Shown here piece by piece: positions 47,860-62,133 of a stretch of 64,000 nucleotides of DNA (position 1 is the first letter of the stretch; every line of letters begins with the position of its first letter). Under the pieces are notes generated by a model. That model was not told the origin of the DNA, made no database searches, and saw nothing but the letters and a program-made list of their open reading frames with translations. Position numbers and translations under genes: made by a program. This DNA is from a phage. The stretch lies in NCBI GenBank assembly GCA_027263115.1, contig GCA_027263115.1_3656.1; one strand, 5' to 3'.

Positions 47860-48180
47860 CGCTCCTGTAGGTCCTGCAAGGACTCTAGCTGAAAGCTAGA
47901 CCCTTCGGGCCTCCCTGTAGGTCAGGTCAAAATCGTGGCAGAACTGAGCCTGTTCAGATATTTCTGGCTGACTCTTCAGGTCTGTGTGGGAAAAGCCAAC
48001 CTCTCCGGCGGGGCAGGGGAGGGAGGTAAATTAAAAAATTTACGTGGTGTATGAAGCGCTCTTCAGGTAAGGCAGGTATTATGTGATGAAACCCTCTTCA
48101 GGCAATGATATTTGTGGGTGTGATATTTGCTGGAAAGCCAGATATGACGGGACTCCCGGCGGGGCAGGGGTAGTACAGAC
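47860..48180. repeat. G-rich direct repeats
   Basis: CCGGCGGGGCAGGGG at 48004 and 48155; CCTGTAGGTC at 47864 and 47914; CTCTTCAGG at 47972, 48059, 48094 (also 48508 and 49156). Confidence 0.5.
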
Positions 48181-48866
48181 GGGGGAAATATGGGGATGTA
48201 GTTGGGGAAATTGATCAGGCAGGTAGAGTATGGAATATGTTACAAGTATGTTAAATATGGAGGTTGAATATCTGTAGGATTTGTGTGTAAAATCAAAGAC
48301 TTAAGTGGTGTTGTGGTATTTTCTATAAATAATTCAAGTTTAATAGGTAATATTTGCCTCTATCCACTTTGTGTGGTAAACAGATTCAGATGAGATTAGT
48401 TTACAAGTGTATACATAATATACAAATTAAAGATACAAGAAACCCCCCTCCCCCCTTCGGCTACCATTCACCTTTTCCTCTGACTGGTACTTAAACACTT
48501 ATTCAGACTCTTCAGGTTATCACCCATATATCATATGGCAGTGACTGGTGTCCTCCGGCCCCTCTTTCGTCACCCGTCCGCTTCGCCATGCTAATGCCAT
48601 AGCTAATGGTTCGGTTGTTCACCCTGTTCACTCAGGTGTATCTCTATACCCCTTCAAACCGAAGAGAACAGAAAACCCGAATTACTCGGTAAAAGAAAAG
48701 AGAAGAACTTAATTTTATCAGGATAGGCAAGAATGTCAAGGCATGACTGCTCACTAAACAAGCAAACAGTCATGTGTGGGAGGTAAGTGATTGTGGTGGT
48801 AGGAAATTTAGTTGAAAGATGTGTTATAGGTGCTTCCAGCACTTTAGCCGGGCAGCTAATTGTGTG

Positions 48867-49082
48867 TCAGTCCAGCGGTTCATCCTCTACTTCACTGAAA
48901 TCAATGTTCATGGTCTCTTCCCAACCATCGATCTCAGCACAAGAGTGGAGTTCTTTAGGGTTTACTCCCAAAGCCTCAGCAACAGAGTCTATATTTAACA
49001 CCTCTGGCAGGTATGATTCATCGAATTCAAGGTAAATCAGGCCACGAGTGTTGTCAGCTCCACCAAATATCTCTATCTTCAT
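48867..49082 (-). CDS. small acidic protein
   Basis: 71-aa ORF, last gene of the leftward block. Confidence 0.55.
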   Translation of the reverse strand: MKIEIFGGADNTRGLIYLEFDESYLPEVLNIDSVAEALGVNPKELHSCAEIDGWEETMNIDFSEVEDEPLD

Positions 49083-49203
49083 AAAATCTCCTCTGGGAAT
49101 GAAAGTGTGAACAGGGTTTTATACGTTCTAATGCACAGGAATTATACACGTTTGCCTCTTCAGGCCATGCTTTAGCATGAGGAACCTGTGTGGGCTCGGT
49201 GCT

Positions 49204-49416
49204 TCATAGTCTACCACCTCTGAACTCTTCGTGCTCAGGCATAATAGAGAACCAGATATCTACGATGTCCTCCCACGTCAGGTCATCAGCCTCAGGATCT
49301 GTCTGGGACGAAGATGAAGAGTCCTCAGAATCTAAGTTTTCCTCTTTAACTGGCTCATCCAAGGGACATATGGTCACTCCTTCGGATGTCTCTTCAGATG
49401 CATGTGTGTTGATCAT
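49204..49416 (-). CDS. small acidic Ser-rich protein
   Basis: 70-aa ORF. Confidence 0.5.
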   Translation of the reverse strand: MINTHASEETSEGVTICPLDEPVKEENLDSEDSSSSSQTDPEADDLTWEDIVDIWFSIMPEHEEFRGGRL

Positions 49417-49776
49417 GTTCCACCCGTGAGTATTCCGGCAACAGCCGCTATGGAAGTAATGATCATCAGGATCACCACTAAAACTTCAGACAATGTTCTC
49501 ATTGTGTATTCCATATTCTCCAAACTGTGTGTGGATACTATCACGGGAGCGGTAATGTGTCAACAGCAACGCCGCGAGGGTTTGGTTAAAATCCGAGCGT
49601 ATGGTGATTTGGGTCAAAACGGACGTGCGTTCTCGCTACGCTCGAAAGAGAGACTTGTTTGTAGAAAGCTCTTAAACGCTCTGTAACGAGATTATCTGTC
49701 CAAGGTATGCAATCGTGCACCAGATAAAGAAAAGGACGCCACAGAGCGTCCTAGGTGTCTTAAATTTGATATTTTG

Positions 49777-50088
49777 CTATACCCATGATGGCTTATCAAG
49801 GTTGGAGTAGCTGAAAGGTGTCAAAAGGTGACTGTCAAAATCTCTCAAACTATCCAGATCTTTTTCCTCGTCCTGACACCATCTGTGCCTGCATTTATTG
49901 TTGTAGTGCATAGAATGCATGGCGTTCTGCAACTTAACAGGCACAAGTGATTCCGGAGTAGATAGTATTGTTGGGTATGCCAGAACCACCTCAAACAGTG
50001 GAAACACATCGAAACTAAAATCTACCTCTGCAGAGGTTGATGGCATGTAGGAGTATTTAGCCGTCTTTGTAGACATAATCCACCTCAC
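49777..50088 (-). CDS. hypothetical protein
   Basis: 103-aa ORF. Confidence 0.5.
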   Translation of the reverse strand: MRWIMSTKTAKYSYMPSTSAEVDFSFDVFPLFEVVLAYPTILSTPESLVPVKLQNAMHSMHYNNKCRHRWCQDEEKDLDSLRDFDSHLLTPFSYSNLDKPSWV

Positions 50089-50411
50089 ACAGGTTTGATA
50101 ATACCTTTACCGAATAATTCTTCGTATCTAATCTTATCCGGATCCCACTCTTGGATAATTTCGAAGACAATATCCAACCCAGGGATAATCACTTCTCCAG
50201 TGTCAAGTTTGGCAAGAACAAAACCAGAAGGCTGAATGGTTTCCCAGTTGCGCCGATTGGAATAGAAGACCTCGAAAATATCGCCGACCTTTATCTGTTG
50301 ATCAAGATGTTCAAGATTCTCTTTCATATAGACGCAGCGGATTTTTCGTGCAGGCCATAGACCACCTGCATCACGTTCATTTAGCTCTTTTACAGTAATC
50401 GGTATACCCAT
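50085..50411 (-). CDS. hypothetical protein
   Basis: 108-aa ORF, ATGA overlap. Confidence 0.55.
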   Translation of the reverse strand: MGIPITVKELNERDAGGLWPARKIRCVYMKENLEHLDQQIKVGDIFEVFYSNRRNWETIQPSGFVLAKLDTGEVIIPGLDIVFEIIQEWDPDKIRYEELFGKGIIKPV

Positions 50412-50434
50412 CTCAAATCTCCTTCATAGATAGT

Positions 50435-50462
50435 AAAAAGAGGGGCCCAAGCCCCCCCTCTT
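50435..50462 (-). terminator. intrinsic terminator (leftward)
   Basis: on the minus strand, hairpin agagggggggcttgggcccctct followed by TTTTT, just past the stop of the 50468 gene. Confidence 0.6.
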
Positions 50463-50467
50463 TGTCA

Positions 50468-50773
50468 TTATTCTACAGAGCGTTTGAACAGAATGTCTGC
50501 CTCAGACATGTGCTCAACCTCTTCTTCGATTTTAGCGCGACGTTTTTCAGCCTCATAGCGAATATCGAACTCGGTAGCCACCAGAGATTTGATGAATTTA
50601 GGAGAATACAGGTGATCCTGCTTCTCAACGAGAATGATATCCTTAATGGCATCTTTCAGATCTTTAATCTGAAGTTGGAGTTCTACCAGTTCTTCGATTG
50701 TTTTGCGAAGGCGATCACGCTCTGCAGTGTCAGAAGGAAGAGAGGTGAACAGTTCAACTTTAGATTTAGCCAT
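50468..50773 (-). CDS. hypothetical coiled-coil protein
   Basis: 101-aa ORF with AAGGAGAC RBS. Confidence 0.55.
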   Translation of the reverse strand: MAKSKVELFTSLPSDTAERDRLRKTIEELVELQLQIKDLKDAIKDIILVEKQDHLYSPKFIKSLVATEFDIRYEAEKRRAKIEEEVEHMSEADILFKRSVE

Positions 50774-50801
50774 AGTAAGAGTCTCCTTATGTTGTTTTAA
50801 A

Positions 50802-51053
50802 TTAACGTTCTACAAAAATACCGTTCAGTTCAATAACCAGGAATTTCTGGTCTTCACTATCGTCTCGTGCCAGCACCTCACAGACGTATCGGTCATCCCC
50901 ATCATCATCGCAGTCAAATACAAGACTGAGGACTTTATCATGGTAAACCTTCGCCACTACCGCCTCGTAAGTATTGCCGATTGTGAATCCAAGATAATCT
51001 CCGATGCATTTGACAACAACATGGTCTCCAGCATTTAAGTCAATCTTCGTCAT
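50802..51053 (-). CDS. hypothetical acidic protein
   Basis: ATG after AAGGAG; track ORF 50802-51119 extends upstream. Confidence 0.5.
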   Translation of the reverse strand: MTKIDLNAGDHVVVKCIGDYLGFTIGNTYEAVVAKVYHDKVLSLVFDCDDDGDDRYVCEVLARDDSEDQKFLVIELNGIFVER

Positions 51054-51208
51054 TACTGCGCTCCTTGGGTAATAATACTGTATGTAAAACTTTAACCAGA
51101 GATGTGAATAACGCCCCAAAACACACCGATAGCGCTAAAACAGACAAGGCCATCATTAAAGCTTCAGTAAAATCAGTCATTCCTCACCTCTTGTTAGTCA
51201 CTATACTA

Positions 51209-51472
51209 TCATTTATCCTTGTCGTCAAGAACTTTTTTAAATCTTTCAGGGATATCTCCCGTTCTTAGATAGTTCATGACCTCGCAAGGTTCCCACTTGA
51301 ATTTCTTACAGAGCAGGGCGGCTGAGATTGTTTCATTGCGAAAAGAAAGGATATTAATATCCCACTCTGAGAACCCCAACTTCCGAAGGGTAGCTACAGA
51401 AATCCTCACCGCAACCCAGCAGCAAAAACATGCAACAAACGCCACTGCTACAACCCACATCAGGATGTTCAT
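51209..51472 (-). CDS. hypothetical membrane protein
   Basis: N-terminal hydrophobic segment ILMWVVAVAFVACFCCWVAV. Confidence 0.5.
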   Translation of the reverse strand: MNILMWVVAVAFVACFCCWVAVRISVATLRKLGFSEWDINILSFRNETISAALLCKKFKWEPCEVMNYLRTGDIPERFKKVLDDKDK

Positions 51473-51561
51473 ATAAGCACCTTACTGAAATACAAGACAC
51501 AGTGTTAAGGTTACTGACCAGCAAATAATTAACAGTGCCGTTGCAACCTTGGCAAGATTTA

Positions 51562-51849
51562 TCATAGTGCCTCTAAGATTTCATATCCTTCGGGTCGGAA
51601 TACAAGCCACTCCGTGGCTCCGTTTGGTCGATACGCTTTATACAGAACAACCTGGTCTCGGCACATGCACATGGCTACATAGTTTTCATCCACACCTGCA
51701 GCCTGCATTGCATCTTCTTCTCCGGCAACTGCTTTGCTTACAACTTCCTTGGTAGGCAGGTGTGCGATCAGCTCGTCACCATCATTAATTCCAAAATGGC
51801 TGAGTTCGCCGTTGGTATCTTTAATCTTAATCTTAACCAGATCTTTCAT
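51562..51849 (-). CDS. small acidic protein (possible distant member of the MKVK family)
   Basis: 95-aa ORF, ATGA overlap. Confidence 0.5.
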   Translation of the reverse strand: MKDLVKIKIKDTNGELSHFGINDGDELIAHLPTKEVVSKAVAGEEDAMQAAGVDENYVAMCMCRDQVVLYKAYRPNGATEWLVFRPEGYEILEAL

Positions 51850-52178
51850 TAGTCTTCCCCCAGGTTCAAAGGTCCTAAGATTTCATATGCCAGATTAGAA
51901 GTTACAAGAGGGTCTTCTGCGTCTTTAGTATTATACCACCCGTGAATAACCAGAGTCCCACTTTGTTTCATGTCCAACTGGAACTCTTCTGCCGTTTCCT
52001 CATCCAGCTCCAAGATTTCCATAAGGTATTTGATGTTAGGGAGGTATGCAGCTGTTACAGTCCCCTCTACCAGACCTTCAGGCCAACCTACATCTGGATG
52101 ACAAGTAGGAACCAGGTTGGTCAGCTTAATGGTGTACGCTTTTTCTGCACGAGCCTTCAGTAACGGGTCAATCTTCAT
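51849..52178 (-). CDS. small acidic protein
   Basis: 109-aa ORF, ATGA overlap. Confidence 0.5.
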   Translation of the reverse strand: MKIDPLLKARAEKAYTIKLTNLVPTCHPDVGWPEGLVEGTVTAAYLPNIKYLMEILELDEETAEEFQLDMKQSGTLVIHGWYNTKDAEDPLVTSNLAYEILGPLNLGED

Positions 52179-52528
52179 TATTCGTCCTCCTCTTCGGTAC
52201 CTGCTTCCAGTAATAAGTTAAGAATATCTTCTGCACAAGGTTCATAGAACTCTTGGCCTTCATTATCGATGATTTTGTAGTCATCTCCACGAATAATCAG
52301 GGGATCACTCTCAAAATTATCGAGACCTTTAACAACGACAACACGATCGATTGCCATCATTGTAAGAACTTTATCGACATCTTCCTCTGCTACACCATAC
52401 TGCAGCAGAATGTCTTTGGTAGGAGGAACAGCATCCACCACAACGCCGTTACCAAAACCTTCTGGAAGTTTAGCTAAAATATCTTCCGGAACCACATTCA
52501 CATCAAAACCGGTAATTTCTACTTTCAT
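52178..52528 (-). CDS. small acidic protein (MKVE start, family-like)
   Basis: 116-aa ORF, acidic C-terminus. Confidence 0.5.
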   Translation of the reverse strand: MKVEITGFDVNVVPEDILAKLPEGFGNGVVVDAVPPTKDILLQYGVAEEDVDKVLTMMAIDRVVVVKGLDNFESDPLIIRGDDYKIIDNEGQEFYEPCAEDILNLLLEAGTEEEDE

Positions 52529-52789
52529 TTACAGCACCTCTTCGTCAACTACTTCATAAAAATGGCCTGGGATTGCAATAGCGTTCTCACCTTCACCTAC
52601 AAACACAGTTCCGTCAAGAATCAACATCATAAGAATTTCTGTAATATCCTCTTCCGGAACGTTGCCAAAACCTTTAATCAGCTCGTAGGTTGGAATATTT
52701 ACCTCTAAGATGTCACCATCTTTAGAACGGAAATCAACACCGTCCTGAATCTCTGCCGTTTCAAGGTTTTTCAATTTAATCTTCATCAA
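52529..52789 (-). CDS. small acidic protein (MKIK start, family-like)
   Basis: 86-aa ORF ending ...VVDEEVL. Confidence 0.5.
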   Translation of the reverse strand: MMKIKLKNLETAEIQDGVDFRSKDGDILEVNIPTYELIKGFGNVPEEDITEILMMLILDGTVFVGEGENAIAIPGHFYEVVDEEVL

Positions 52790-52865
52790 TCGGTCCCCTG
52801 TCTTGTTAAGATGAAGGTATTATTTCACACAGGGTTGGCGTTGTCAACACCTGTGTGCAAGAAAA

Positions 52866-53261
52866 TTACTGAAACAGTGCGGATAAATTACCTTCTGGTG
52901 GGAACTTATCTGCCAAAAACGGTGTTAGCACAGTAGCCTTCTGAAGATCTGGGGTCCACTCGTTGTTCAGAACATCCCAGTAGTACGCAATGTTGCTGTG
53001 TGGGTGCCGCATTACGAACTTTTTCCCTTCGTAGTCATCTGAAACCTCTACAGAAGAAATAACAACAGAATCTTCAAGGGTTTCTTCATAGAAAGATCCA
53101 CCTTCAAATTTCCAACGAGATGCAAGAGCCCCTGCCTTGAACGCTGCAGATAACGGACTGTCGGCAAGAACATACATTTCTTGCACTCTGTCGCTGCGAT
53201 CTTTGCTTCTTACGTTGTATACAGTATCTGAGCTATACTCAACACGGTATAGGCTTACCAT
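52866..53261 (-). CDS. hypothetical protein, paralog of 55068-55466
   Basis: RHPHSNIAYYWDVLNNEWTP vs HPDSRVKHYWNARTKTWTP in the paralog. Confidence 0.55.
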   Translation of the reverse strand: MVSLYRVEYSSDTVYNVRSKDRSDRVQEMYVLADSPLSAAFKAGALASRWKFEGGSFYEETLEDSVVISSVEVSDDYEGKKFVMRHPHSNIAYYWDVLNNEWTPDLQKATVLTPFLADKFPPEGNLSALFQ

Positions 53262-53620
53262 TACCGCACCTCCTCAATAACTTCCACATCTGAACCTACC
53301 ACAAATGCAAAAGGACAGGTTTCATGAAAGATATCCGGATCGCCGCCAAGCTTGCTAACAATTTCTCCACCACTAATAAACACAAGCTCACCGATATTCA
53401 TCAGATTGCTGAAATAGTACCCATAATGATTAAAGAATGCAGCAGGGTCAGGTAGACTAGTAGCCTCAAGCACTACATCGGTTGAGGTTACTTTCTTATC
53501 ATAACCTCTCGCCTTTTGAGATGCAAGATCTGCAGAATCCTCAGGCGACCGGAGATGCATAGGAATTGTTTCACCAATAAAGCGTACTTTCATATTATCA
53601 CCCAACAACCATAGCTTCAA
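53261..53620 (-). CDS. small acidic protein, MKVK family
   Basis: likely starts at internal MKVRFIGE; ends ...DVEVIEEVR. Confidence 0.5.
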   Translation of the reverse strand: MKLWLLGDNMKVRFIGETIPMHLRSPEDSADLASQKARGYDKKVTSTDVVLEATSLPDPAAFFNHYGYYFSNLMNIGELVFISGGEIVSKLGGDPDIFHETCPFAFVVGSDVEVIEEVR

Positions 53621-53861
53621 AAGGAGTCATGAACGAATAAACGGCATCATCATCTGCTTCAGGGAATGCTCCCAAAGACTTCATATCTGAGCCCTTGACA
53701 AATACAAGGTTTTGATCAAAGGCTTCTTGGGGGTCAATCCGATACATATTTCGTAAAATATCGCTTACCTCCTCATCAAGAGGTGAGTATGCTGTGCACG
53801 TTTTTCCGATCAAGCTTTGAGAATCAGGGTATCCACCTGAAGTTTTAAAATAAACAATCAT
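53598..53861 (-). CDS. small acidic protein, MKVK family
   Basis: GYPDSQSLIGK...VFVKGSDMKSLGA resembles the 59276 and 55479 members. Confidence 0.5.
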   Translation of the reverse strand: MIVYFKTSGGYPDSQSLIGKTCTAYSPLDEEVSDILRNMYRIDPQEAFDQNLVFVKGSDMKSLGAFPEADDDAVYSFMTPFEAMVVG

Positions 53862-53952
53862 ATAGTATCACCTCTGGTAAGAGATTGGGACTCCTTTCCC
53901 ACAAATAATTACAAATCTTCCTTAGCGAGGAAGTATGCTAATCCAAGCAGGA

Positions 53953-54222
53953 TTATTCCTCTACAATCTCATACACATCAGGAGTTACAATCAACTCTTC
54001 TCCGTTACCCGGTGCAACAAACACCACCAAACCTTCAGGTGTGTGCTTTTTAGCCATCTCGATAACATCTTCTCGCAGAGCTGGCTCCATCAGATCAAAA
54101 CCTTCACCTAGGGCATCACGAACCACCTTCATATAGTCCACTGGTTGTGCTTCAACAATCATGCCTTCAACCAGTCCACAATTTTTGTCTGCCAGCTCAG
54201 TTTGGAATAATTTAATTTTCAT
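53953..54222 (-). CDS. small acidic protein (MKIK start, family-like)
   Basis: 89-aa ORF ending ...YEIVEE. Confidence 0.55.
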   Translation of the reverse strand: MKIKLFQTELADKNCGLVEGMIVEAQPVDYMKVVRDALGEGFDLMEPALREDVIEMAKKHTPEGLVVFVAPGNGEELIVTPDVYEIVEE

Positions 54223-54248
54223 TTAGAGGTCTCCTCAATTATTTGATA

Positions 54249-54350
54249 TTAATAGCCGTAACCTAACACATTAACTACAACTGCGATTGCAAACATAATT
54301 TCAAAGCATGCAATCTCTACACTTGGGACTAATTTCTTAATCACGCCCAT
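54249..54350 (-). CDS. small hydrophobic peptide (33 aa)
   Basis: ATG after GAGGTG; hydrophobic core. Confidence 0.35.
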   Translation of the reverse strand: MGVIKKLVPSVEIACFEIMFAIAVVVNVLGYGY

Positions 54351-54359
54351 TGTAGCACC

Positions 54360-54677
54360 TCATTCTCCAAAGTCAATCTTTACTTTTCCTTTCCCTTTAC
54401 CTTTCTTTCCACCGCATTTAGCCAGCTGACGTGCTGCAACATCTACCATACGGTCAGTTGCCTCGTAAGCATCACTGCCTTTAGCTTTGGCAATAACTTC
54501 TTTTCCAGAAGTGTCAAAAATGAACGCCATAACTTCCTGGTGATCATTTTCAACTTTTACACTTACACGTGCATGATTTACAGAAGGATGTAGACGCTCC
54601 AGTTTTGACATTTTGTGGGAAATGAAAGACACCATACCTTCGGTGATTTCTACGTTGCCAGTAATCTCAATTTGCAT
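54360..54677 (-). CDS. ribosome hibernation factor, RaiA/HPF (YfiA) family
   Basis: MQIEITGNVEITEGM...KLERL...V.VKVE...A.GSDAYEA.D...D...RQLAK aligns with E. coli HPF/RaiA as recalled; Lys/Gly-rich tail. Confidence 0.8.
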   Translation of the reverse strand: MQIEITGNVEITEGMVSFISHKMSKLERLHPSVNHARVSVKVENDHQEVMAFIFDTSGKEVIAKAKGSDAYEATDRMVDVAARQLAKCGGKKGKGKGKVKIDFGE

Positions 54678-54759
54678 AACGTGTTCCTTTTAAAGAAGAG
54701 AGAATAACTCTCTCTTTGAAAACAATAATACTATAACTGAAGCGTTGTGTCAACAGTTT

Positions 54760-55050
54760 TTACAGATTGTTGTCGATAGTATTTAAAATATCTACAGCAA
54801 GATCTGCCATTTTTCGAACATACTCTGCAAACTCAACAGGATCCTTGATCAAAGAATTCACAGGGTCGTACCCTAGAGCGTTTAAAATGGCTGCAGCATC
54901 TACAACCTTCTCATCATTTGCGAAGATCTCTCCGTCAAACTTGTAGGTCCATTTTGAGTCAACCTTAGCAGAGCAGGGTTTGTCCATGCTTGTTACACCA
55001 TCGTCTTTAAACTCTCCTGCGTTATCAATATTTAGAATTAAATCCATCAT
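54760..55050 (-). CDS. hypothetical protein
   Basis: 96-aa ORF. Confidence 0.55.
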   Translation of the reverse strand: MMDLILNIDNAGEFKDDGVTSMDKPCSAKVDSKWTYKFDGEIFANDEKVVDAAAILNALGYDPVNSLIKDPVEFAEYVRKMADLAVDILNTIDNNL

Positions 55051-55067
55051 GGTGACACCTCACTGTT

Positions 55068-55466
55068 TCAGTTTAGCTTTTCTTCAACAACCCCATAACT
55101 TGGGGCAGAGTCAAGAGCTTTCTGGTTTAAAAGTGGCGTAGCAGAATCTGCAAACGGTGTCCAAGTTTTTGTTCTGGCATTCCAGTAATGCTTCACTCTG
55201 GAATCTGGATGCACTATAACAAAAACTTTTTCACTTGTCAACACATTAATTTCTTCTACACCCTTGCTGATAATTTCTCCGTCATAGCCCCCAGTCTGGT
55301 ATCCTTCGTACCAGGTTCTTGCATAGGCATAGCCAGCCTGCCAGCATGCAGCCTCCTCCGAGGTGGAGACTACGTAGAAGTCTTTCTCAAATTCTGGAAT
55401 ACGCCCTTGCTTTACGCTCCAAGCCCCGCGAATTTTCATTGTAACTTTAAACAGTTTATTTTTCAC
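55068..55466 (-). CDS. hypothetical protein, paralog of 52866-53261
   Basis: 132-aa ORF; see paralog. Confidence 0.55.
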   Translation of the reverse strand: MKNKLFKVTMKIRGAWSVKQGRIPEFEKDFYVVSTSEEAACWQAGYAYARTWYEGYQTGGYDGEIISKGVEEINVLTSEKVFVIVHPDSRVKHYWNARTKTWTPFADSATPLLNQKALDSAPSYGVVEEKLN

Positions 55467-55478
55467 AACGGTTACCCA

Positions 55479-55733
55479 TCACAGCTCTACAATATCTGCA
55501 TCTGACCCTACCCCAAAGGCATAGTAGGACTCTTCCCCGAAATAATATTCAGGTGCACCAGCGGTGATCAGGTCTGATCCCAAGATAAACACCACGTTGT
55601 GGCCTACATAACTGTGATGTTGCCGCACAGGATCATCCCACGGCAACCCTTCAAAGTATACCGCAGGAACGACCTTTCCATTCAGGAAGGATTGTCCCAA
55701 GTAGACGTTAGAATCAAGAATTTTAACCTTCAT
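55479..55733 (-). CDS. small acidic protein, MKVK family
   Basis: MKVKILDSNVYLGQ...LITAGAPEYYFGEE. Confidence 0.55.
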   Translation of the reverse strand: MKVKILDSNVYLGQSFLNGKVVPAVYFEGLPWDDPVRQHHSYVGHNVVFILGSDLITAGAPEYYFGEESYYAFGVGSDADIVEL

Positions 55734-55950
55734 GATCGTCCTCCACTACCTCTACATCCTCACCTAGGGCAAAGTTATAGGTCCACTGACTGTCAAAGCA
55801 TTCCTGAGATGCACCAGCGGCAATAAGATCTGCTCCTTTTATTTTTAAAAGGTCAGGGTAATCTTCGTTAGGGACAGCAGTAAACACTTTTCCTACTAAA
55901 GGCTCCTGACCAATATAGAAGCTTGAATCTAAAACTTTAACTTTCATCAA
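55723..55950 (-). CDS. small acidic protein, MKVK family
   Basis: MKVKVLDSSFYIGQ...LIAAGASQECFD. Confidence 0.5.
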   Translation of the reverse strand: MMKVKVLDSSFYIGQEPLVGKVFTAVPNEDYPDLLKIKGADLIAAGASQECFDSQWTYNFALGEDVEVVEDDHEG

Positions 55951-56234
55951 CGGTCTCCATCAGGTGGTTGTGGGACGTAAACACTGTTACGAATATCGTC
56001 AGCAGTGTAGTAATAAGTGGTTCCAACCCTGTCTCGGGCTGCAATGTACTCTGCTATACCAATAAGTGCCATTGATTTGGTGGCGTATCTTCCCAACTCG
56101 TTAGCTCCCCAGTAGAATTTAGACCAGTAGGGAATAAGACCGAACAAATATACCTTTTGACGAACTTCCCAGTAAGTGCCTTTTCCGACAAGTTTAAACT
56201 CTACTTCACTACTGTTAATCTTTTTCATTATCAA
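55947..56234 (-). CDS. hypothetical protein
   Basis: 95-aa ORF, ATGA overlap. Confidence 0.5.
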   Translation of the reverse strand: MIMKKINSSEVEFKLVGKGTYWEVRQKVYLFGLIPYWSKFYWGANELGRYATKSMALIGIAEYIAARDRVGTTYYYTADDIRNSVYVPQPPDGDR

Positions 56235-56527
56235 TCTCCCTCTACCGTGGTCGGATTGTCAGTAAGAAATTGAGCATTGGCTGGAGGCACGCCTGACATT
56301 TTCCACACAACCATAAGTTTGTAACCAGGCACTCTATTAAGTGCAGATCGAGTAGAGTTTGTGCACGTATACTTTCGCTTTCCAAACCCGTTCTCCATCA
56401 TAATCCAGTACCCAGTATCTTTGTCACCAGGTATCGGTAGACCACCTTCATCAACCCACTGAATGGACCACGGCACGATGGCTACAGCTTTATATTTAAA
56501 CTTTTTAAACCACTCAAAAAGTTTCAT
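56231..56527 (-). CDS. hypothetical protein
   Basis: 98-aa ORF, ATGA overlap. Confidence 0.5.
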   Translation of the reverse strand: MKLFEWFKKFKYKAVAIVPWSIQWVDEGGLPIPGDKDTGYWIMMENGFGKRKYTCTNSTRSALNRVPGYKLMVVWKMSGVPPANAQFLTDNPTTVEGD

Positions 56528-56712
56528 AATTCAGCCTCGCTTGGCAACTCTTCTACCTTAACATGCCGAAAAGTGTTACCGTAATGGTTGATCCATGACA
56601 TCAGCTCGCTTTCTTGCTCTTCCTCTGGGATGAACTCTCGAATGCTGACAAGTTTTAAGAAAACCCAATCACAATCTGCACCCATTCTACCAGACAGGCA
56701 ATAGTGCTTCAT
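56524..56712 (-). CDS. hypothetical protein
   Basis: 62-aa ORF. Confidence 0.45.
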   Translation of the reverse strand: MKHYCLSGRMGADCDWVFLKLVSIREFIPEEEQESELMSWINHYGNTFRHVKVEELPSEAEL

Positions 56713-56730
56713 AAAACCCTCCTGCCTGGT

Positions 56731-56925
56731 TTAGAATATTGCTTCTTCCATTGCGCCTGAGAGCAACAAAGAGGTGATCTGGCTAACATTCATCTCAGAC
56801 TCTACTTCCTCCCCTTTGAAAGGTTCGCGGCAGAATAGGACTGTTTCAGGACTTTTACTTCGAACAATATAATACAAATCATTCAATGTGTTGTAGTAAT
56901 AAGTGTTAAAACGTAAGTTTTTCAT
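56731..56925 (-). CDS. hypothetical protein
   Basis: 64-aa ORF. Confidence 0.45.
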   Translation of the reverse strand: MKNLRFNTYYYNTLNDLYYIVRSKSPETVLFCREPFKGEEVESEMNVSQITSLLLSGAMEEAIF

Positions 56926-57209
56926 TTTCTAGTCCTCTTCTTAGATTTTTGGGGAGAAACGCTTTCTGCAATACGAGACAGACGTTCTTCTGAAGCCTTA
57001 CCTACTCCAGGTTTTTTGAGTGGATTATCTTTATGACCACAATCCAACTGGATATTGGATACCTCTCCAACTTTGTAAGTCAATTCTAGCAAAAGGTTGT
57101 CGTCCTTGTCAAATGTTTTTACGATAAATTTTTTATCGTTCTCCTGAACTTCATATCTGGTACCTGCAGTATACAGCATGGTGCCATCAGCATAGGATAT
57201 CCAGATCAT
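56922..57209 (-). CDS. hypothetical protein
   Basis: 95-aa ORF, basic C-terminus. Confidence 0.5.
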   Translation of the reverse strand: MIWISYADGTMLYTAGTRYEVQENDKKFIVKTFDKDDNLLLELTYKVGEVSNIQLDCGHKDNPLKKPGVGKASEERLSRIAESVSPQKSKKRTRK

Positions 57210-57553
57210 TGAGCCTCCTTTTGCTGCAACAGCATTAACTCTTTGTTAGAGATCTTTACTGCTGTTTTTATTGTTCCATCTTCACGAAACCACGACCAGA
57301 ACTCTACAGTGTCACCACTATCAAGTAAAGCATGCCCATGGTAAAAATCTTTGTCCTTAGACAGTTTCTCATCTATATCTGCATCAACACATTCGTGATC
57401 CATAGCATTTTGCCTGAACGCATCGGTTATGCCAATGCACGCCTTGCTCTCAAGACTGGTATATCCGATATCTTTTAATTCAGTTTCCCAAGTCCAGTAC
57501 CCTATAAAAGCTAAAACAGCTACCCACAGTAATAACGTTTTAATCTTTGGCAT
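57206..57553 (-). CDS. hypothetical protein with N-terminal signal or TM segment
   Basis: MPKIKTLLLWVAVLAFIGYWTW hydrophobic N-terminus. Confidence 0.5.
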   Translation of the reverse strand: MPKIKTLLLWVAVLAFIGYWTWETELKDIGYTSLESKACIGITDAFRQNAMDHECVDADIDEKLSKDKDFYHGHALLDSGDTVEFWSWFREDGTIKTAVKISNKELMLLQQKEAQ

Positions 57554-57615
57554 TCTCTCTACCTCTTTCTTAGTTTATTTCACTATGGCACATCCTTTGT
57601 GCCATATCTCAACTA

Positions 57616-58086
57616 CTACTTAAATAGTAGTTCAAAATAGTGCAAAATTAACAGAAGTTGAACTACACCTAGTGCAACGGCGAGTATGTTAATCTTAGAA
57701 TCGAAAAACTTCTTAACTTTTACTCTAAAAGGTTCCTTAATGTCCTTTACGATCCTATCTATAGATGACCTCATATCTCTGATTACCATCCTGAACATTA
57801 AAGACGGATGCTCCCCCATCTCTGTAACGGAATCGAAAACATACTCTCTTCGGTCATAAGGGCCGCCAGCTCTGCGTATTAACCTCTCCACAGAGACCTC
57901 GAACGTCACACCTGTAACGTAATCATCTATAACAAGTCGTGACGGGTCTTTACCTTTACTATCAAGAGGTATCAAAGTTATCTTTCCAGATTTTGTTAAA
58001 ATTTCCCCTTTTTCAAGCAAGGTGTACCAATGCTCTCTGCCAAGACTGTTGAGGCACGTTTTTACATATTTAACAAACATCGTCAC
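57616..58086 (-). CDS. hypothetical protein with C-terminal TM segment
   Basis: 156-aa ORF; C-terminal LAVALGVVQLLLILHYF. Confidence 0.5.
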   Translation of the reverse strand: MTMFVKYVKTCLNSLGREHWYTLLEKGEILTKSGKITLIPLDSKGKDPSRLVIDDYVTGVTFEVSVERLIRRAGGPYDRREYVFDSVTEMGEHPSLMFRMVIRDMRSSIDRIVKDIKEPFRVKVKKFFDSKINILAVALGVVQLLLILHYFELLFK

Positions 58087-58286
58087 CCCTCATCGCACGT
58101 CTGATATAACCACTCTATAAAATCTTGATACCATTCGCCCTCTGAGCGCTCCGTAGGCCAATAATCTTCACCCTCTCGTGCATTAAAATCTGAGTATTCA
58201 ACTTTCCACTCCTTTACCAGCTCGTGGAGAAGGTTTTCAGCCTGCTCTAAAGATTTATTTTTTACCATTGCTGTCTCCTTTTTCAA
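58083..58286 (-). CDS. hypothetical protein
   Basis: 67-aa ORF, ATGA overlap. Confidence 0.45.
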   Translation of the reverse strand: MKKETAMVKNKSLEQAENLLHELVKEWKVEYSDFNAREGEDYWPTERSEGEWYQDFIEWLYQTCDEG

Positions 58287-58487
58287 GATAGTTATACATC
58301 AGAACTGCACCACCTAAGATGGCTACCAGTAACAATATCCCAGATAGCATCTCAATAAACATGGCTTGAAACACTGGAAGGTCTCCCTAAATTAACGCAC
58401 CATTTTAAATACATGCTCTTTTCCCATAAAGGTGCCTGGCTAAGATCTGCGTAGAACGCAATCTCTTTAAGAACAGTATAGATAGTT

Positions 58488-58715
58488 TTAGGTGCGGTCT
58501 CCATCCCTACTCTCCTTCCTGATATTCTTGTAGTAATCAACTAGGCACATTATTACGATGAAGATAACAACAGGCCAAAAAGGTGCAGCAGTGATGATGG
58601 TGATAAAATCATCAAACTTCACCCTTCGTCTGGACACGATGCATACACCTGTCAAGAATACCGCTGTTATAACGGACATTACCAGGTAACCTATTAGCAC
58701 AACATTTATACTCAT
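58488..58715 (-). CDS. hypothetical membrane protein
   Basis: two hydrophobic helices. Confidence 0.5.
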   Translation of the reverse strand: MSINVVLIGYLVMSVITAVFLTGVCIVSRRRVKFDDFITIITAAPFWPVVIFIVIMCLVDYYKNIRKESRDGDRT

Positions 58716-58745
58716 TGGTCCTCCCTTTGTAGGTTAAATTGTATA

Positions 58746-59279
58746 CTACAAATGGTCGCTGAGGGTGTCAAGAAAATTATCCCGTTCTTTCTCAGAGTTT
58801 TCATGTGTGTAGCTGAAAAACATATCGAGAATAACCTTATTGATATATTCCAGCTCCTCTGTGTTCAGATGCTTAGCAGGATCTACAATGACATCCCAAA
58901 TATCATACAGACCACACTCATGATACCCATAACGCCACTCAATTGTCAAGCTGAGCGGCAAATCTTTACCTTCACAAACAACCTTCCATCTACATATGTT
59001 GGTATCTGGTCGTACCTGTGCACGGTACACCTGCACAAAATCCAATTTGAATTTGAGGTACTCGTCATACAATTTAAGCACAAAGCTCTCGATTTGTGGA
59101 GACACTTTTGCAGCAAACTGTGCGTATTTGTACTTGCACTGGATGATCTTTCTGCGTTTTGCAGTTAAATTTTTTGCCGCCAGTTGTTCTTCAGTGTATC
59201 TCCACCTACGATCAACAAACGCAACAGGGTCTTTGTCCCCATAGAGGTCTTCCCAGTTAATCAGAAGCATACCTGTCAC
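58746..59279 (-). CDS. hypothetical protein
   Basis: 177-aa ORF. Confidence 0.55.
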   Translation of the reverse strand: MTGMLLINWEDLYGDKDPVAFVDRRWRYTEEQLAAKNLTAKRRKIIQCKYKYAQFAAKVSPQIESFVLKLYDEYLKFKLDFVQVYRAQVRPDTNICRWKVVCEGKDLPLSLTIEWRYGYHECGLYDIWDVIVDPAKHLNTEELEYINKVILDMFFSYTHENSEKERDNFLDTLSDHL

Positions 59280-59509
59280 TCCTCCACAACTTCAAGGCCT
59301 TTACCGCCTCGCTCTGGCAGATTACTTAAAGATAGGTAATACATATAATCAGGAGAGATCCTGCCAGACTCTGCACCTGCAGCTAGTAAATCCTTCCCTT
59401 TAACCAGGACAACATTCTCGTTTGCAGATAGCCGTTTTGCTTCCACAATTTTACCAACACAGTCAACCAAGGAAGGGTACCCTAAATCTGTAAGAAATTT
59501 AACTTTCAT
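59276..59509 (-). CDS. small acidic protein, MKVK family
   Basis: MKVKFLTDLGYPSLVDCVGK...LLAAGAESG...EVVEE. Confidence 0.55.
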   Translation of the reverse strand: MKVKFLTDLGYPSLVDCVGKIVEAKRLSANENVVLVKGKDLLAAGAESGRISPDYMYYLSLSNLPERGGKGLEVVEE

Positions 59510-59546
59510 GCTACCTCCTACCTACCGTCCCTGGTAAGATAAATTA

Positions 59547-59945
59547 TTACTGAACAGAGCGCGGTGCTGGGAAGGATAACTCTTCTAAAGAGAAGATTTC
59601 ATTTCCTACCACCCAAGTTGCTGGGTCATCTGGATCAACAGGTTGGATAATCATTACCTCATCCGCCTCGCACACACGTTTCCCACCCATAGTAGCGTCA
59701 GCCACTAACATACGCGGCTCTTCAGAAATGCACAGGTAGCCACCTCGGCCCACTGTTCCTTCCACGGGATCCTGCCCTTTGACCACAATGAATACCTTCT
59801 CTCCTGTGGAGATATTACTTTTCACACTAACAGTTTGACCAACTTTAGATGTACCGATCTTGGTGGCTTCAAACATTAAATCCCGAATTACTGTTGCATA
59901 GTTGCCGGACACTTTCTTACCTTCTTTAGTAATCTCAATCTTCAT
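59547..59945 (-). CDS. hypothetical protein
   Basis: 132-aa ORF. Confidence 0.5.
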   Translation of the reverse strand: MKIEITKEGKKVSGNYATVIRDLMFEATKIGTSKVGQTVSVKSNISTGEKVFIVVKGQDPVEGTVGRGGYLCISEEPRMLVADATMGGKRVCEADEVMIIQPVDPDDPATWVVGNEIFSLEELSFPAPRSVQ

Positions 59946-60217
59946 AATCTAGGCTCCTTAAATGAATCTATGTAATCAATTAAATCCCAAGCATCGCGAT
60001 GGGCTGTCAGAGGGTATACTTCTCCGAGAGGGATCATAGCAATAAGTCTATCAAAAACCCAGTCTGGACGCAACATTTTATGGTGATATTCCCACTCACC
60101 TTCCACAGATTTTTTCTGAGTGATCAGGATCTCTGTGTAGTGTTTCGCCTGTCTTGAGTAGATTGAAAATGACTTGTACATAAATGACCCCCTCTTGTTG
60201 AAAACAACAATACACAA
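59942..60217 (-). CDS. hypothetical protein
   Basis: 91-aa ORF, ATGA overlap. Confidence 0.5.
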   Translation of the reverse strand: MCIVVFNKRGSFMYKSFSIYSRQAKHYTEILITQKKSVEGEWEYHHKMLRPDWVFDRLIAMIPLGEVYPLTAHRDAWDLIDYIDSFKEPRL

Positions 60218-60532
60218 CTACCAGGTTACTGTCAAGTAGGCAACCGTATTATTTTTCTCTGGGGAGATGCCAACAACATCTACCTGCAGACCTCCTGCCC
60301 TTAAATCTCCAACAATGTGCGGGAAGTAATCTGAGAGATGCGAGGGTAGATTTATCGAAAATCCGCACCCCAGAAAGCCTGCTAACGCTTTATTTTGTAT
60401 CTCCCCTACAATCGCATCATAAATGGAGTTAAGCTCGTCAGGGAGCGTTACAGGGCGTTTTAGCGCTAGCTGGTGTAATTTGTCCTTAGCACTCATTTTC
60501 ATTTCAGGTCTACCTCTGGGGGTGCCAACCAC
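60218..60532 (-). CDS. hypothetical protein
   Basis: 104-aa ORF. Confidence 0.5.
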   Translation of the reverse strand: MVGTPRGRPEMKMSAKDKLHQLALKRPVTLPDELNSIYDAIVGEIQNKALAGFLGCGFSINLPSHLSDYFPHIVGDLRAGGLQVDVVGISPEKNNTVAYLTVTW

Positions 60533-61032
60533 ATAAACGGCGGCAAGTCTAAACGGTTTTTCTTATCCCACACAAAATATGCATATGCTTGCCCGTCAGT
60601 TCTGCCGTTTGATTGAAATGATGGACGCTTAGATATTGTGATCACAGTAGTAGGTGCATTATCAAGCCACCATTCAAATCTGGCTTTGCTTTCCAGAAAA
60701 TTAAGACGCAAAAGCATAATAACTACGTCAGCATCTTTCAACGCCTTGTCTACAAACTCACGAGCCAGGCTGTATGGTGGGTTGGTGATAATACAGTCAA
60801 CATGGTTGTATTCTGTATTCAGATAGTCAACACCTTCTTGTATTTCTCCCCATGCAGATCCTAACGGCATACGGGAGTAGAACACACCTGAGGCACTATT
60901 CCTGCAAGGCTCTAAGTAGGTCCAGTCTTCTGGGAACGGAATAAGGTCATACAGCCCTTCTGCACACCACTCCGGTGTCACATACTCATCGTAGGCGTTA
61001 CGTTGTTCATCAGGTTTTCTAGCACAAGTCAT
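60499..61032 (-). CDS. small Dam-like DNA N6-adenine methyltransferase
   Basis: IITNPPY motif IV (NPPY); 177 aa, typical of compact phage Dam-family enzymes. Confidence 0.65.
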   Translation of the reverse strand: MTCARKPDEQRNAYDEYVTPEWCAEGLYDLIPFPEDWTYLEPCRNSASGVFYSRMPLGSAWGEIQEGVDYLNTEYNHVDCIITNPPYSLAREFVDKALKDADVVIMLLRLNFLESKARFEWWLDNAPTTVITISKRPSFQSNGRTDGQAYAYFVWDKKNRLDLPPFMWLAPPEVDLK

Positions 61033-61083
61033 GCAAATCTCCAGATCATAAAAGCCCTCCGAAGAGGGCTTTAGAATTAATGT

Positions 61084-62133
61084 TTAAGCTTCTTCGACAA
61101 TTCCTGCACCCAGGATTTTTTCATTGAGCTCTTTTGCTGTTTTAATAATATTGTCCACCAGACGCTTGCGAGTCTTATCTTTCACCTTAACCTCTTCACC
61201 GCCGTTCAGAGTAGTCTTCAATTGAGACAGAATATCCTGAAGTTCAACGACAGAGAATCTCTGCAGATCTTCTGAAGTAATCTCACTCAGGGCAATTCTG
61301 ACGGTCTCGCCACTTTCCATCTGCAGATTCAGGAACACAGTGTGAACATCACCTTTCGAACCACCCGCTTTTGCAGATTCAACAGCATGAACTAACTCAT
61401 CTAAAGATGTGCACTGGTGAATCTCCGGAAGACCTGCTTCACCTAACACGCCTTCTTCATCACCTTTTGCCAGAAGCTTTTTCGGTTTTTGTCCGTTCTG
61501 GATGCGTTGTATGTTGCCTTCATCCAGAATAATAGCTCCAGTGCGTGCTGCCAGCTCTTCTCCGTCCAACCACACTTCGCCACCAGCTGTGATGGATGCG
61601 ATCTCATCTTCTGTCAGCACCCCACCGTAGTATTTTTCGATCAGGCGTTCAAAACGTTTTTTCCAGTAGCTGACCTGAGTATTCATGTTCACACCGTTAC
61701 CATAAGTGCCACCTTGATAGTAGTGGAACATAAACTCTGTGTCCGGAGCCACAGTACGTTCTTTACAACCAAGCCATAAGATTGTTCCAGCAGAGCAGCA
61801 CATCCCTTCAGCATGTGCAACAACGCTTGCCTGAGACTCTCGGAATGCCTGCAGATAAGCCATTGCAATGTGCACGCAACCCCCAGGGCTATTGATGATC
61901 ACCCGAATGCTTTCTTCCGGCTGAGCCATACGGATCGTCTGCAGACGAGACATATGATCTTGTAAGTCTTCCAAATCGTCGATATAAAGAACGTGGTCAA
62001 CAACAGGTGTTGGGTAGCTGTATGTTTCCATGATACCGCCCGGCATACCAAACATTTTATTACTCATAGGTTCGAAACCGTTCTGTTTTTCTTTCATGCC
62101 GTGTACCATGGTGCTGCGAGGTGTTAAATTCAT
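61084..62133 (-). CDS. ClpP-like serine protease (S14/S49 fold)
   Basis: INSPGG, catalytic Ser context GMCCSAG, His in FMFHYYQGG; long C-terminal extension. Confidence 0.7.
   Translation of the reverse strand: MNLTPRSTMVHGMKEKQNGFEPMSNKMFGMPGGIMETYSYPTPVVDHVLYIDDLEDLQDHMSRLQTIRMAQPEESIRVIINSPGGCVHIAMAYLQAFRESQASVVAHAEGMCCSAGTILWLGCKERTVAPDTEFMFHYYQGGTYGNGVNMNTQVSYWKKRFERLIEKYYGGVLTEDEIASITAGGEVWLDGEELAARTGAIILDEGNIQRIQNGQKPKKLLAKGDEEGVLGEAGLPEIHQCTSLDELVHAVESAKAGGSKGDVHTVFLNLQMESGETVRIALSEITSEDLQRFSVVELQDILSQLKTTLNGGEEVKVKDKTRKRLVDNIIKTAKELNEKILGAGIVEEA

What the first reader, a model, noticed from the sequence alone, without database searches (positions are those of the whole stretch)
54360..54677. 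Phage-encoded ribosome hibernation factor (RaiA/HPF family)
The 105-aa protein matches the RaiA/HPF fold signature along its length and adds a Lys/Gly-rich tail. It sits among small early-type genes, which suggests the phage manipulates host ribosomes, for example stabilising them or modulating translation during takeover.
Basis: partly seen in the sequence, partly recalled or inferred. Interest (0 to 1): 0.65.

Follow-up and report, generated by a model that had tools for sequence, protein, structure and literature searches.

The report
Known HPF-like gene of rV5 phages
This is a real ribosome-hibernation-factor (HPF) homologue in an rV5-like E. coli phage, but it has been annotated since 2008, was published in 2019, and its effect on ribosomes is still unproven.

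Summary
A 105-aa ORF lies at 54360..54677 on the minus strand. It passes Pfam Ribosomal_S30AE (50.2 bits, cut-off 23.7) and TIGR00741. [quoted passage not shown]

The window is an rV5-like Vequintavirus. The gene is rV5 ORF144/gp139, present in about 118 phage records, where most annotated records label it sigma-54 modulation factor, HPF or RaiA. Mizuno et al. 2019 described it and expressed it in E. coli. They found no protein in ribosomes pelleted through 0.5 M NH4Cl and no change in 100S, and called the result inconclusive.

New here:
- The protein is closer to short HPF than to RaiA but meets neither equivalog cut-off.
- It forms an isolated phage clade; after a 65% sister lineage the next relative is 44% identical or less.
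- dN/dS is 0.02-0.06, and the tail is kept through synonymous changes.
- Both phage lineages lack two of the five conserved helix-2 basic rRNA contacts (K80, K89) and the uS9-contacting His55.
- It has its own strong sigma-70-type promoter.

Family membership is supported; the effect on ribosomes is inferred. Already known; low interest.

The parts
54360..54677 (-). hpf-like CDS, 105 aa plus TGA stop; orthologue of rV5 ORF144/gp139 (YP_002003641, ABI79209)
   Evidence: ORF listing. Pfam, NCBIfam and PDB matches. 97% identical to the rV5 protein. Annotation in NC_011041.
54417..54677 (-). [quoted passage not shown]
   Evidence: AlphaFold2 model: mean pLDDT about 90 over residues 1-80, elements E2-7 H13-29 E33-43 E46-55 E60-67 H70-89. 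The top 35 Foldseek PDB hits are all HPF/YfiA/pY; 4hei scores TM 0.94 at rmsd 1.1.
54363..54416 (-). C-terminal Lys/Gly-rich tail, residues 88-105 (CGGKKGKGKGKVKIDFGE); predicted disordered, net charge +4
   Evidence: pLDDT below 50 for residues 91-103. The KGKGKGK sequence is kept through 7 synonymous codon changes between the window and L007. A basic tail of different sequence is present in the sister lineage P0004.
54725..54753 (-). Sigma-70-type promoter of hpf: TTGACA, 17 nt spacer, TATTAT (11 of 12 consensus positions); equals rV5 promoter P144
   Evidence: Promoter scan. rV5 record annotates 'Sigma70-type promoter; P144' at the same place. The -35 hexamer and its upstream AAACTG are invariant in 8 relatives, including the 64%-identity sister lineage.
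54685..54689 (-). Shine-Dalgarno sequence AAGGA, 7 nt upstream of the ATG
   Evidence: Read directly from the sequence. Invariant in the Vequintavirus relatives aligned, except L006, which reads GAGGA.
54692..54717 (-). Hairpin at the predicted 5' end of the hpf transcript (AAGAGAGAG-TTAT-TCTCTCTT)
   Evidence: RNA fold gives -10.3 kcal/mol, but the z-score is only -1.8. The stem is kept in relatives, with an A-to-G change in the 5' arm matched by a T-to-C change in the 3' arm between the window and rV5/L007. Weak evidence; the role is inferred.

Best explanation
The gene encodes a phage copy of the bacterial short hibernation promoting factor (HPF/YfiA, S30AE family). Its closest relatives of known origin are gammaproteobacterial, and it is now fixed in Vequintavirus and a sister lineage.

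Shown:
- It has the HPF fold and sequence signature.
- It is under strong purifying selection.
- It carries a sigma-70-type promoter-like element that is conserved in relatives.
- It has a selected, basic, disordered C-terminal tail.

Inferred:
- Host RNA polymerase transcribes it early in infection.
- The core binds vacant 30S/70S ribosomes in the channel between the head and body of the 30S subunit, where HPF and RaiA block the mRNA and the A- and P-site tRNAs.
- The Lys/Gly tail runs on from helix alpha-2 toward the mRNA channel and the RMF site, as the RaiA tail does.

The most likely net effect is RaiA-like. Idle ribosomes would be held as protected 70S monomers, and RMF-dependent 100S dimerisation or dormancy would be opposed. 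Ribosomes would then stay intact and quickly reusable for phage mRNAs. Because K80, K89 and His55 are lost, binding is probably weaker or more salt-sensitive than that of host HPF.
For: Family and fold:
- Pfam, TIGRFAM and PDB sequence matches.
- AlphaFold model with a confident core, and Foldseek hits restricted to HPF/YfiA/pY down to E 5e-4.

Retained positions, using the contact list in bioRxiv 10.1101/2025.10.07.680626 and family frequencies:
- Contacts kept: K26 (phage K25), E60, R83, K87 and K91. Q29 becomes R28.
- K23 (phage K22), invariant in the family but not on that contact list, is also kept.

Selection: dN/dS is 0.02-0.06 within Vequintavirus, with 30 synonymous against 3 non-synonymous differences between the window and L007. 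The tail is preserved at protein level through synonymous change.

Conservation: the gene is present in about 118 of 121 related phage records. It sits in the same syntenic position in a lineage only 64% identical.

Expression: strong promoter with a conserved -35 hexamer.

Tail logic: the flexible RaiA C-tail overlaps the RMF site, so RaiA-bound ribosomes cannot dimerise (PMC13152769; preprint).

Biological rationale:
- Mizuno et al. proposed that viral HPF could compete with the cellular homologues and prevent dimers.
- RMF rises during DRT2 anti-phage defence.
- No phage in the collection encodes RMF.
Against: The only experiment was negative. rV5 HPF expressed in E. coli was absent from 70S and 100S fractions and did not change the 100S peak. 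However, those ribosomes were pelleted through 0.5 M NH4Cl and the cells were harvested at OD 1.

Contacts are missing in both phage lineages:
- Two of the five strictly conserved alpha-2 basic contacts are lost: K80 to V/T and K89 to G/S. The family is 83% and 89% basic at these positions.
- The His/Arg55 that contacts uS9 is Phe.
- The DMYAAID motif reads DAYEATD.

Neither the HPF nor the RaiA equivalog cut-off is met. The tail has no sequence similarity to the RaiA tail. Early timing is inferred from a promoter consensus only.
Confidence: 0.5

Rival explanations
1. It is a classical hibernation promoter. Like host short HPF, it works with host RMF to convert 70S ribosomes into inactive 100S dimers. 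This would shut down host translation or store ribosomes during infection of starved cells.
For: The best sequence and structure matches are short HPFs, not RaiA. The core is 40% identical to E. coli HPF over the full-length alignment and 42-44% over residues 1-87 in relatives.
Against: Expression of rV5 HPF did not change the 100S peak. The protein has a tail 10 residues longer than HPF, which by analogy with RaiA would clash with RMF. No phage encodes RMF. Shutting down ribosomes early would also hurt phage translation.
Confidence: 0.15
2. The fold has been repurposed. The protein no longer binds ribosomes and uses its dsRBD-like fold and basic tail on another target, such as a different RNA, a host protein, or a nucleotide immune signal as the Acb4 sponges do.
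For: - The published ribosome association test was negative.
- K80, K89 and His55 are lost in both phage lineages.
- The clade is isolated, with nothing between 65% and 44% identity among 1.84 billion representatives.
- The Acb4 paper notes that the phage sponge Acb4 shares this fold with HPF 4hei.
- Acb4 and T7 Gp1.2 appear as weak Foldseek hits to the model.
Against: The Acb4 and Gp1.2 hits are marginal (E about 1e-2, TM 0.44-0.55), whereas the HPF hits reach E 1e-10 and TM 0.94. The remaining rRNA-contact residues and the family-invariant K22, G7, T12, D69, Y71, D75 and Q84 are all kept. About 11-17% of cellular family members also lack a basic residue at the K80 or K89 position. There is no PADLOC hit.
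Confidence: 0.2
3. It is a decaying passenger gene picked up from a host, with no function in the phage.
For: Two records (Murica, APCEc02) have frameshifted tails.
Against: dN/dS is 0.02-0.06. The gene is kept in nearly all of about 120 genomes and in a divergent sister lineage at the same position. The two frameshifts are single-base changes in G/A homopolymer runs, and the downstream DNA is unchanged, which looks like sequencing error.
Confidence: 0.03

Closest known systems
E. coli / gammaproteobacterial short HPF (YhbH; PDB 2rql, 6h4n, 4v8h; Vibrio 4hei)
   Same: [quoted passage not shown] It is 40% identical to E. coli HPF over the full-length alignment. The N-terminus MQ(I/L)xITGN(N)VEITE is nearly identical. 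K23, K26, E60, R83, K87 and K91 are retained.
   Different: It scores 57.5 bits against the 125-bit equivalog cut-off. K80, K89 and H55 are replaced and the DMYAAID motif reads DAYEATD. The C-terminal KHKDKLKQH is replaced by an 18-residue Lys/Gly-rich tail, making the protein 10 residues longer. The gene is driven by a phage early-type sigma-70 promoter, not the host's regulation of hpf.
E. coli RaiA (YfiA, protein Y; PDB 1n3g, 4v8i)
   Same: Same core fold. Both have a flexible extension beyond helix alpha-2. In RaiA this extension overlaps the RMF site and blocks 100S formation. RefSeq names the phage protein RaiA.
   Different: The RaiA equivalog model scores only 20.3 bits against a 158-bit cut-off. 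The model is about 21-24% identical to YfiA chains. The tail is shorter than that of the 113-aa RaiA, and its Lys/Gly-rich sequence was not seen at this position in the cellular family members aligned here.
rV5 ORF144/gp139 'HPF' as described by Mizuno et al. 2019 (PMC6375957) and Mathieu et al. 2020 (PMC6969025)
   Same: It is the same gene: 97% amino-acid identity, same length, same genomic position and same promoter.
   Different: Three substitutions (V33A, H35Y, T56N relative to rV5). There is no difference in kind.
HPF homologues of jumbo phages (Cronobacter GAP32, Escherichia PBECO4, Xanthomonas XaC1)
   Same: They are phage-encoded S30AE-domain proteins with the same predicted fold.
   Different: They are only about 24% identical to this protein and sit in unrelated genomes, so they appear to be independent acquisitions. 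Mizuno et al. place the GAP32 protein away from the gammaproteobacterial clade.

Membership tests
Ribosomal_S30AE / HPF-YfiA superfamily (PF02482, TIGR00741) | Profile HMM score above the curated cut-off | tested here: met
   PF02482 scores 50.2 bits against 23.7. TIGR00741 scores 50 against 40.9.
Ribosomal_S30AE / HPF-YfiA superfamily (PF02482, TIGR00741) | [quoted passage not shown] | tested here: met
   The AlphaFold2 model has this element order, with core pLDDT about 90. The top 35 PDB hits all belong to this family. This rests on a prediction, not a solved structure.
Ribosomal_S30AE / HPF-YfiA superfamily (PF02482, TIGR00741) | Conserved basic track on helices alpha-1 and alpha-2 that contacts 16S rRNA (E. 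coli K26, K80, R83, K87, K89, K91) | tested here: inconclusive
   K26, R83, K87 and K91 are kept. K80 becomes V and K89 becomes G, and the sister lineage has T and S at these positions. The family is 83-89% basic there.
Ribosomal_S30AE / HPF-YfiA superfamily (PF02482, TIGR00741) | Binds the 30S subunit at the decoding channel | not testable with these tools
   The published test found no protein in 70S or 100S fractions after a 0.5 M NH4Cl cushion. The authors considered it inconclusive.
Short HPF (NCBIfam NF007780 equivalog) | Equivalog HMM score above the cut-off | tested here: not met
   57.5 bits against a cut-off of 125.
Short HPF (NCBIfam NF007780 equivalog) | Promotes RMF-dependent 100S dimer formation | not testable with these tools
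   Mizuno et al. saw no discernible effect on 100S in cells expressing the protein.
RaiA / YfiA (NCBIfam NF007654 equivalog) | Equivalog HMM score above the cut-off | tested here: not met
   20.3 bits against a cut-off of 158.
RaiA / YfiA (NCBIfam NF007654 equivalog) | Flexible C-terminal tail beyond alpha-2 that reaches the RMF site | tested here: inconclusive
   A disordered 18-residue tail is present, but its sequence is unrelated to the RaiA tail. Where it would lie on the ribosome could not be modelled here.
Long HPF (S30AE domain plus C-terminal dimerisation domain) | Second, C-terminal dimerisation domain; total length about 180-190 aa | tested here: not met
   The protein is 105 aa. 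Pfam finds only PF02482, on residues 3-88, and residues 91-103 are predicted disordered.

The most novel reading that the evidence does not exclude
The Vequintavirus protein may be a neofunctionalised HPF. Under strong purifying selection, it has given up two universally conserved rRNA contacts and the uS9 contact, and it has gained a Lys/Gly tail. It might act as a fast-exchanging, RaiA-like anti-hibernation factor that blocks RMF-driven dormancy, including dormancy induced by host defences, so that ribosomes stay available to the phage. That would make it a phage counter-measure to ribosome hibernation instead of a hibernation factor.
Probability: 0.25. Interest if true: 0.55.

Novelty: already known. 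Interest (0 to 1): 0.2.

Why it matters
Phage-encoded copies of translation factors show how viruses reprogram or protect host ribosomes, and ribosome hibernation affects whether phages can use starved or dormant cells. This gene has been annotated since the rV5 genome record. It was catalogued and tested experimentally in 2019 and noted again in 2020.

The open question is narrower: does the protein bind ribosomes at all under physiological salt, and does it promote or oppose hibernation? The residue-level differences and the selected tail reported here give concrete mutants and assays for that question. They do not make the finding new.

Tried and rejected
- **Word-indexed homologue search.** It returned only five close relatives. 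The exhaustive HMMER search was needed to see the cellular family.
- **IMG/VR scan.** It gave only two loci, so the selection analysis rests on seven sequences.
- **First structure job.** I repeated it without that row.
- **Neighbouring genes.** I searched 10 neighbours in Pfam and PHROGs for functional partners and found none with a known function.
- **PADLOC.** No hit for hpf. The upstream gene gave only a chance-level Cas11a match (E 0.008), which I dismissed.
- **Phage-encoded RMF.** I looked for one that would argue for 100S formation. None exists in 50,697 phage records.
- **tRNA genes.** I scanned the window for translation-related context and found none.
- **5' UTR hairpin.** I tested whether it is significant. 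The z-score is only -1.8, so it is listed as weak.
- **Acb4-like nucleotide sponge.** I considered this reading because of the shared fold. I rated it unlikely because the Foldseek match is marginal next to the HPF matches.
- **Pseudogene reading.** The truncated Murica and APCEc02 tails could suggest decay. I rejected this because they are single-base homopolymer indels with unchanged downstream DNA.
- **Literature.** Searches for any functional study after 2019 found nothing beyond Mizuno 2019 and Mathieu 2020.

Full report
**1. The observation.**
The window has an ATG-initiated ORF of 105 codons at 54360..54677 on the minus strand; the coordinates include the TGA stop. An AAGGA Shine-Dalgarno sequence lies 7 nt upstream of the start. 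The translation is MQIEITGNVEITEGMVSFISHKMSKLERLHPSVNHARVSVKVENDHQEVMAFIFDTSGKEVIAKAKGSDAYEATDRMVDVAARQLAKCGGKKGKGKGKVKIDFGE.

- Pfam PF02482 (Ribosomal_S30AE): E 4.4e-13, 50.2 bits against a gathering score of 23.7, covering residues 3-88.
- TIGR00741 (HPF/YfiA family): 50 bits against 40.9.
- Solved structures: the best sequence matches are E. coli HPF chains 2rql, 4v8h and 6h4n, E about 1e-12 over residues 1-89.

**2. Structure.**
I built an AlphaFold2 model from a 38-sequence alignment. Mean pLDDT is 82.6, about 90 across residues 1-80. [quoted passage not shown] Residues 91-103 are predicted disordered, with pLDDT below 50.

In a Foldseek search of the PDB, all 35 hits with E at or below 0.001 are HPF, YfiA or protein Y. 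The best are Vibrio cholerae HPF 4hei (TM 0.94 normalised to the target, rmsd 1.1 Å) and E. coli HPF (41-42% identity). The next hits are T7 Gp1.2, dsRBDs and the SPO1 Acb4 sponge. They are marginal, with E about 1e-2 and TM 0.44-0.55.

**3. What genome this is, and what is already known.**
The 3.5 kb around the gene is 97-99% identical to rV5-like coliphages of the genus Vequintavirus. tblastn finds the protein at 94% identity or more in about 118 phage records. In NC_011041 it is ORF144/gp139. That record annotates it as similar to the Klebsiella sigma-54 modulation protein and places a sigma-70-type promoter, P144, just upstream. Most annotated records label it 'sigma 54 modulation factor', 'ribosome hibernation promoting factor' or 'RaiA'; others call it hypothetical.

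Mizuno et al. 2019 (PMC6375957) list rV5 HPF (ABI79209, 105 aa) among virus-encoded ribosomal proteins. They place it among gammaproteobacterial HPFs and suggest that viral HPF may compete with the cellular homologues to prevent ribosome dimers.
- The protein was expressed from pBAD24 in E. coli NM522, and cells were harvested at OD600 of 1.
- Ribosomes were pelleted through a 0.5 M NH4Cl sucrose cushion and separated on gradients.
- Mass spectrometry found HPF peptides in the crude extract but none in the 70S or 100S fractions.
- The 100S peak did not change.

The authors attribute the negative result to growth phase, genuine loss of binding, or the salt wash. Mathieu et al. 2020 (PMC6969025) again note hpf in five rV5-like isolates. 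My searches found no later functional study. The finding is therefore already known.

**4. Which kind of S30AE protein it is.**
The HPF equivalog model NF007780 scores 57.5 bits against a cut-off of 125. The RaiA equivalog NF007654 scores 20.3 bits against a cut-off of 158. The core is therefore HPF-like, but the protein is a formal member of neither subfamily. It also lacks the C-terminal domain of long HPFs.

In an exhaustive HMMER search of 1.84 billion cluster representatives, only 41 proteins reach E at or below 1e-3. The best is a 103-aa protein at 65% identity (P0004). After that there is a gap to 44% identity or less. Among the closest hits I could place are a gammaproteobacterial MAG protein and frameshifted E. 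coli-type HPFs; most of the others carry no name.

P0004 lies on 44-137 kb contigs. It sits in the same run of small genes in a divergent relative of Vequintavirus that is absent from the phage collection. Only about 35% of its 4 kb neighbourhood aligns to Vequintavirus, at 77-82% identity. The gene therefore predates the split of these two lineages. At 40% identity to host HPF over the full-length alignment, the transfer is not recent.

**5. Selection.**
Nei-Gojobori comparisons within Vequintavirus give dN/dS of 0.02-0.06. For example, the window and L007 differ by 30 synonymous and 3 non-synonymous changes. Against the sister lineage, synonymous sites are saturated while dN is 0.29.

The tail is also selected as protein. 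Between the window and L007, seven codons in residues 86-100 differ synonymously, while KKGKGKGK is kept and there is one V-to-G change. The sister lineage has a different but still basic tail, YSKSKGIDKRTAKWDY.

Two records have truncated tails, Murica (99 aa) and APCEc02 (101 aa). Each differs by a single base in a GGGG/AAA run, and the downstream DNA is unchanged. This is most simply sequencing error.

**6. Ribosome-contact residues.**
A 2025 preprint on Gram-negative hibernating ribosomes (10.1101/2025.10.07.680626) lists the HPF contacts:
- K26 and Q29 contact the phosphates of C1496 and G1497, next to m3U1498.
- H55 and E60 contact the uS9 C-terminus.
- T53 and H62 contact m2G966.
- The strictly conserved alpha-2 track K80, R83, K87, K89 and K91 contacts rRNA.

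The table maps these onto the phage protein and onto 35 cellular family members.

| E. coli HPF residue | This phage | Sister lineage P0004 | Cellular family |
|---|---|---|---|
| K23 (not on the contact list) | K22, kept | K | invariant K |
| K26 | K25, kept | K | 100% basic |
| Q29 | R28 | R | 74% basic |
| T53 | F52 | R | mostly T, V or I |
| H55 | F54 | F | 46% basic |
| E60 | E60, kept | V | E is the commonest residue |
| H62 | I62 | M | V, H, F or R |
| K80 | V80, lost | T | 83% basic |
| R83 | R83, kept | R | 80% basic |
| K87 | K87, kept | K | 94% basic |
| K89 | G89, lost | S | 89% basic |
| K91 | K91, kept | S (flanked by K90 and K92) | 83% basic |

The DMYAAID motif reads DAYEATD in both phage lineages. 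Because these changes are shared by two lineages 64% identical, and selection is strong, they are a maintained derived state and not decay. The core has net charge -2 and the tail +4. This pattern fits a protein that still docks in the HPF site, more weakly, with part of its electrostatic binding moved into the tail. That reading is an inference. It would also explain loss at 0.5 M NH4Cl.

**7. Expression signals.**
A TTGACA-17-TATTAT element (11 of 12 consensus positions) lies at 54753..54725 on the minus strand and matches rV5 promoter P144. Its -35 hexamer and the preceding AAACTG are invariant in eight relatives, including the sister lineage. This points to transcription by unmodified host RNA polymerase, and so to early expression, but no transcript data were available. 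A hairpin at the predicted 5' end of the transcript is kept in relatives, with one compensatory pair. It is not statistically remarkable, with a z-score of -1.8.

**8. Mechanism.**
- **Best explanation (confidence about 0.5).** It is an early-expressed, HPF-derived ribosome-binding protein that occupies the decoding channel of vacant ribosomes. Its basic tail extends toward the mRNA channel and RMF site. This gives a RaiA-like outcome: protected 70S monomers and opposition to RMF-dependent 100S formation. The basis for the tail logic is that the RaiA tail overlaps the RMF site and prevents dimerisation (PMC13152769; preprint). No phage encodes RMF. RMF induction accompanies at least one anti-phage defence, DRT2.
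- **Rival: classical 100S promoter (0.15).** This is disfavoured by the unchanged 100S profile and by the tail.
- **Rival: repurposed fold with a non-ribosomal target (0.2).** The negative binding test, the lost contacts, and the fold-level link between HPF and the Acb4 sponges noted in PMC11722364 keep it alive. The retained family signature and the marginal Acb4 match weaken it.
- **Rival: decaying passenger gene (0.03).** This is contradicted by dN/dS.

**9. Verdict.**
The functional interpretation is plausible but unproven, and it has already been tested once with a negative, inconclusive result. The item is already known. The new details are its subfamily placement, the isolated clade, the strength of selection, the lost contacts, the selected tail and the conserved promoter. 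They refine the picture without changing it.

Noticed in passing
window 53953..54222 (-): The 89-aa gene two ORFs downstream of hpf is labelled 'sigma 54 modulation factor' in APCEc02, navn and SophiaRose. It has no S30AE Pfam hit and belongs to PHROG 11868, of unknown function. In APCEc02 the real hpf is called hypothetical, so the label looks shifted to a neighbouring gene and then propagated by similarity.
   Followed up: yes
GenBank relatives of window 54360..54677 (e.g. OR062528, MT884008, MT884010): Several Vequintavirus records annotate the hpf orthologue as 'ATP-dependent protease La Type I'. This is unsupported by any match found here.
   Followed up: partly
whole region; GenBank MG0656xx records: Eighteen unannotated records named 'Campylobacter phage', with host given as C. 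jejuni, are 97-99% identical to this rV5-like coliphage region. This suggests mislabelled or contaminant coliphage genomes.
   Followed up: no
window 54349..54376 (-): A promoter-like site, TTGACT-16-TACAAT with a TG extension, is embedded in the last codons of hpf (K-I-D-F). Its -10 element overlaps the ATG of the 33-aa ORF downstream. In relative L007 the -10 element reads TATAAT. If real, it could constrain the conserved KIDF end of the tail. The scan as a whole is not above chance.
   Followed up: partly
window 54249..54350 (-): A 33-aa hydrophobic ORF (MGVIKKLVPSVEIACFEIMFAIAVVVNVLGYGY, PHROG 15151) lies directly downstream of hpf and is conserved in Vequintavirus. It is not among the called genes in the sister lineage L003, where an 83-nt spacer with no called gene lies between hpf and the next gene.
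   Followed up: partly
window 52866..53261 (-) and 55068..55466 (-): Two paralogous genes of 131-132 aa flank the hpf block. Both belong to PHROG 7379, of unknown function, and share an HYW...W(T)P motif. Several other small ORFs here begin with similar MK(I/V)K(L/I) N-termini, which hints at duplicated small-gene families.
   Followed up: no
window 54654..54656 region (codon 8); relatives navn and Murica: There is a one-codon length polymorphism at the N-terminus. navn and Murica read GNNVEIT (106 aa in navn), which matches E. coli HPF. The window and rV5 read GNVEIT.
   Followed up: partly
relatives L008 (Murica) 640-700 and L009 (APCEc02) 640-706: Single-base indels in the GGGG/AAA run of the tail-coding DNA give truncated 99-aa and 101-aa products. 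The DNA downstream is unchanged, so these are probably homopolymer sequencing errors.
   Followed up: yes
window 1..64000: ARAGORN finds no tRNA genes anywhere in the 64 kb window.
   Followed up: no
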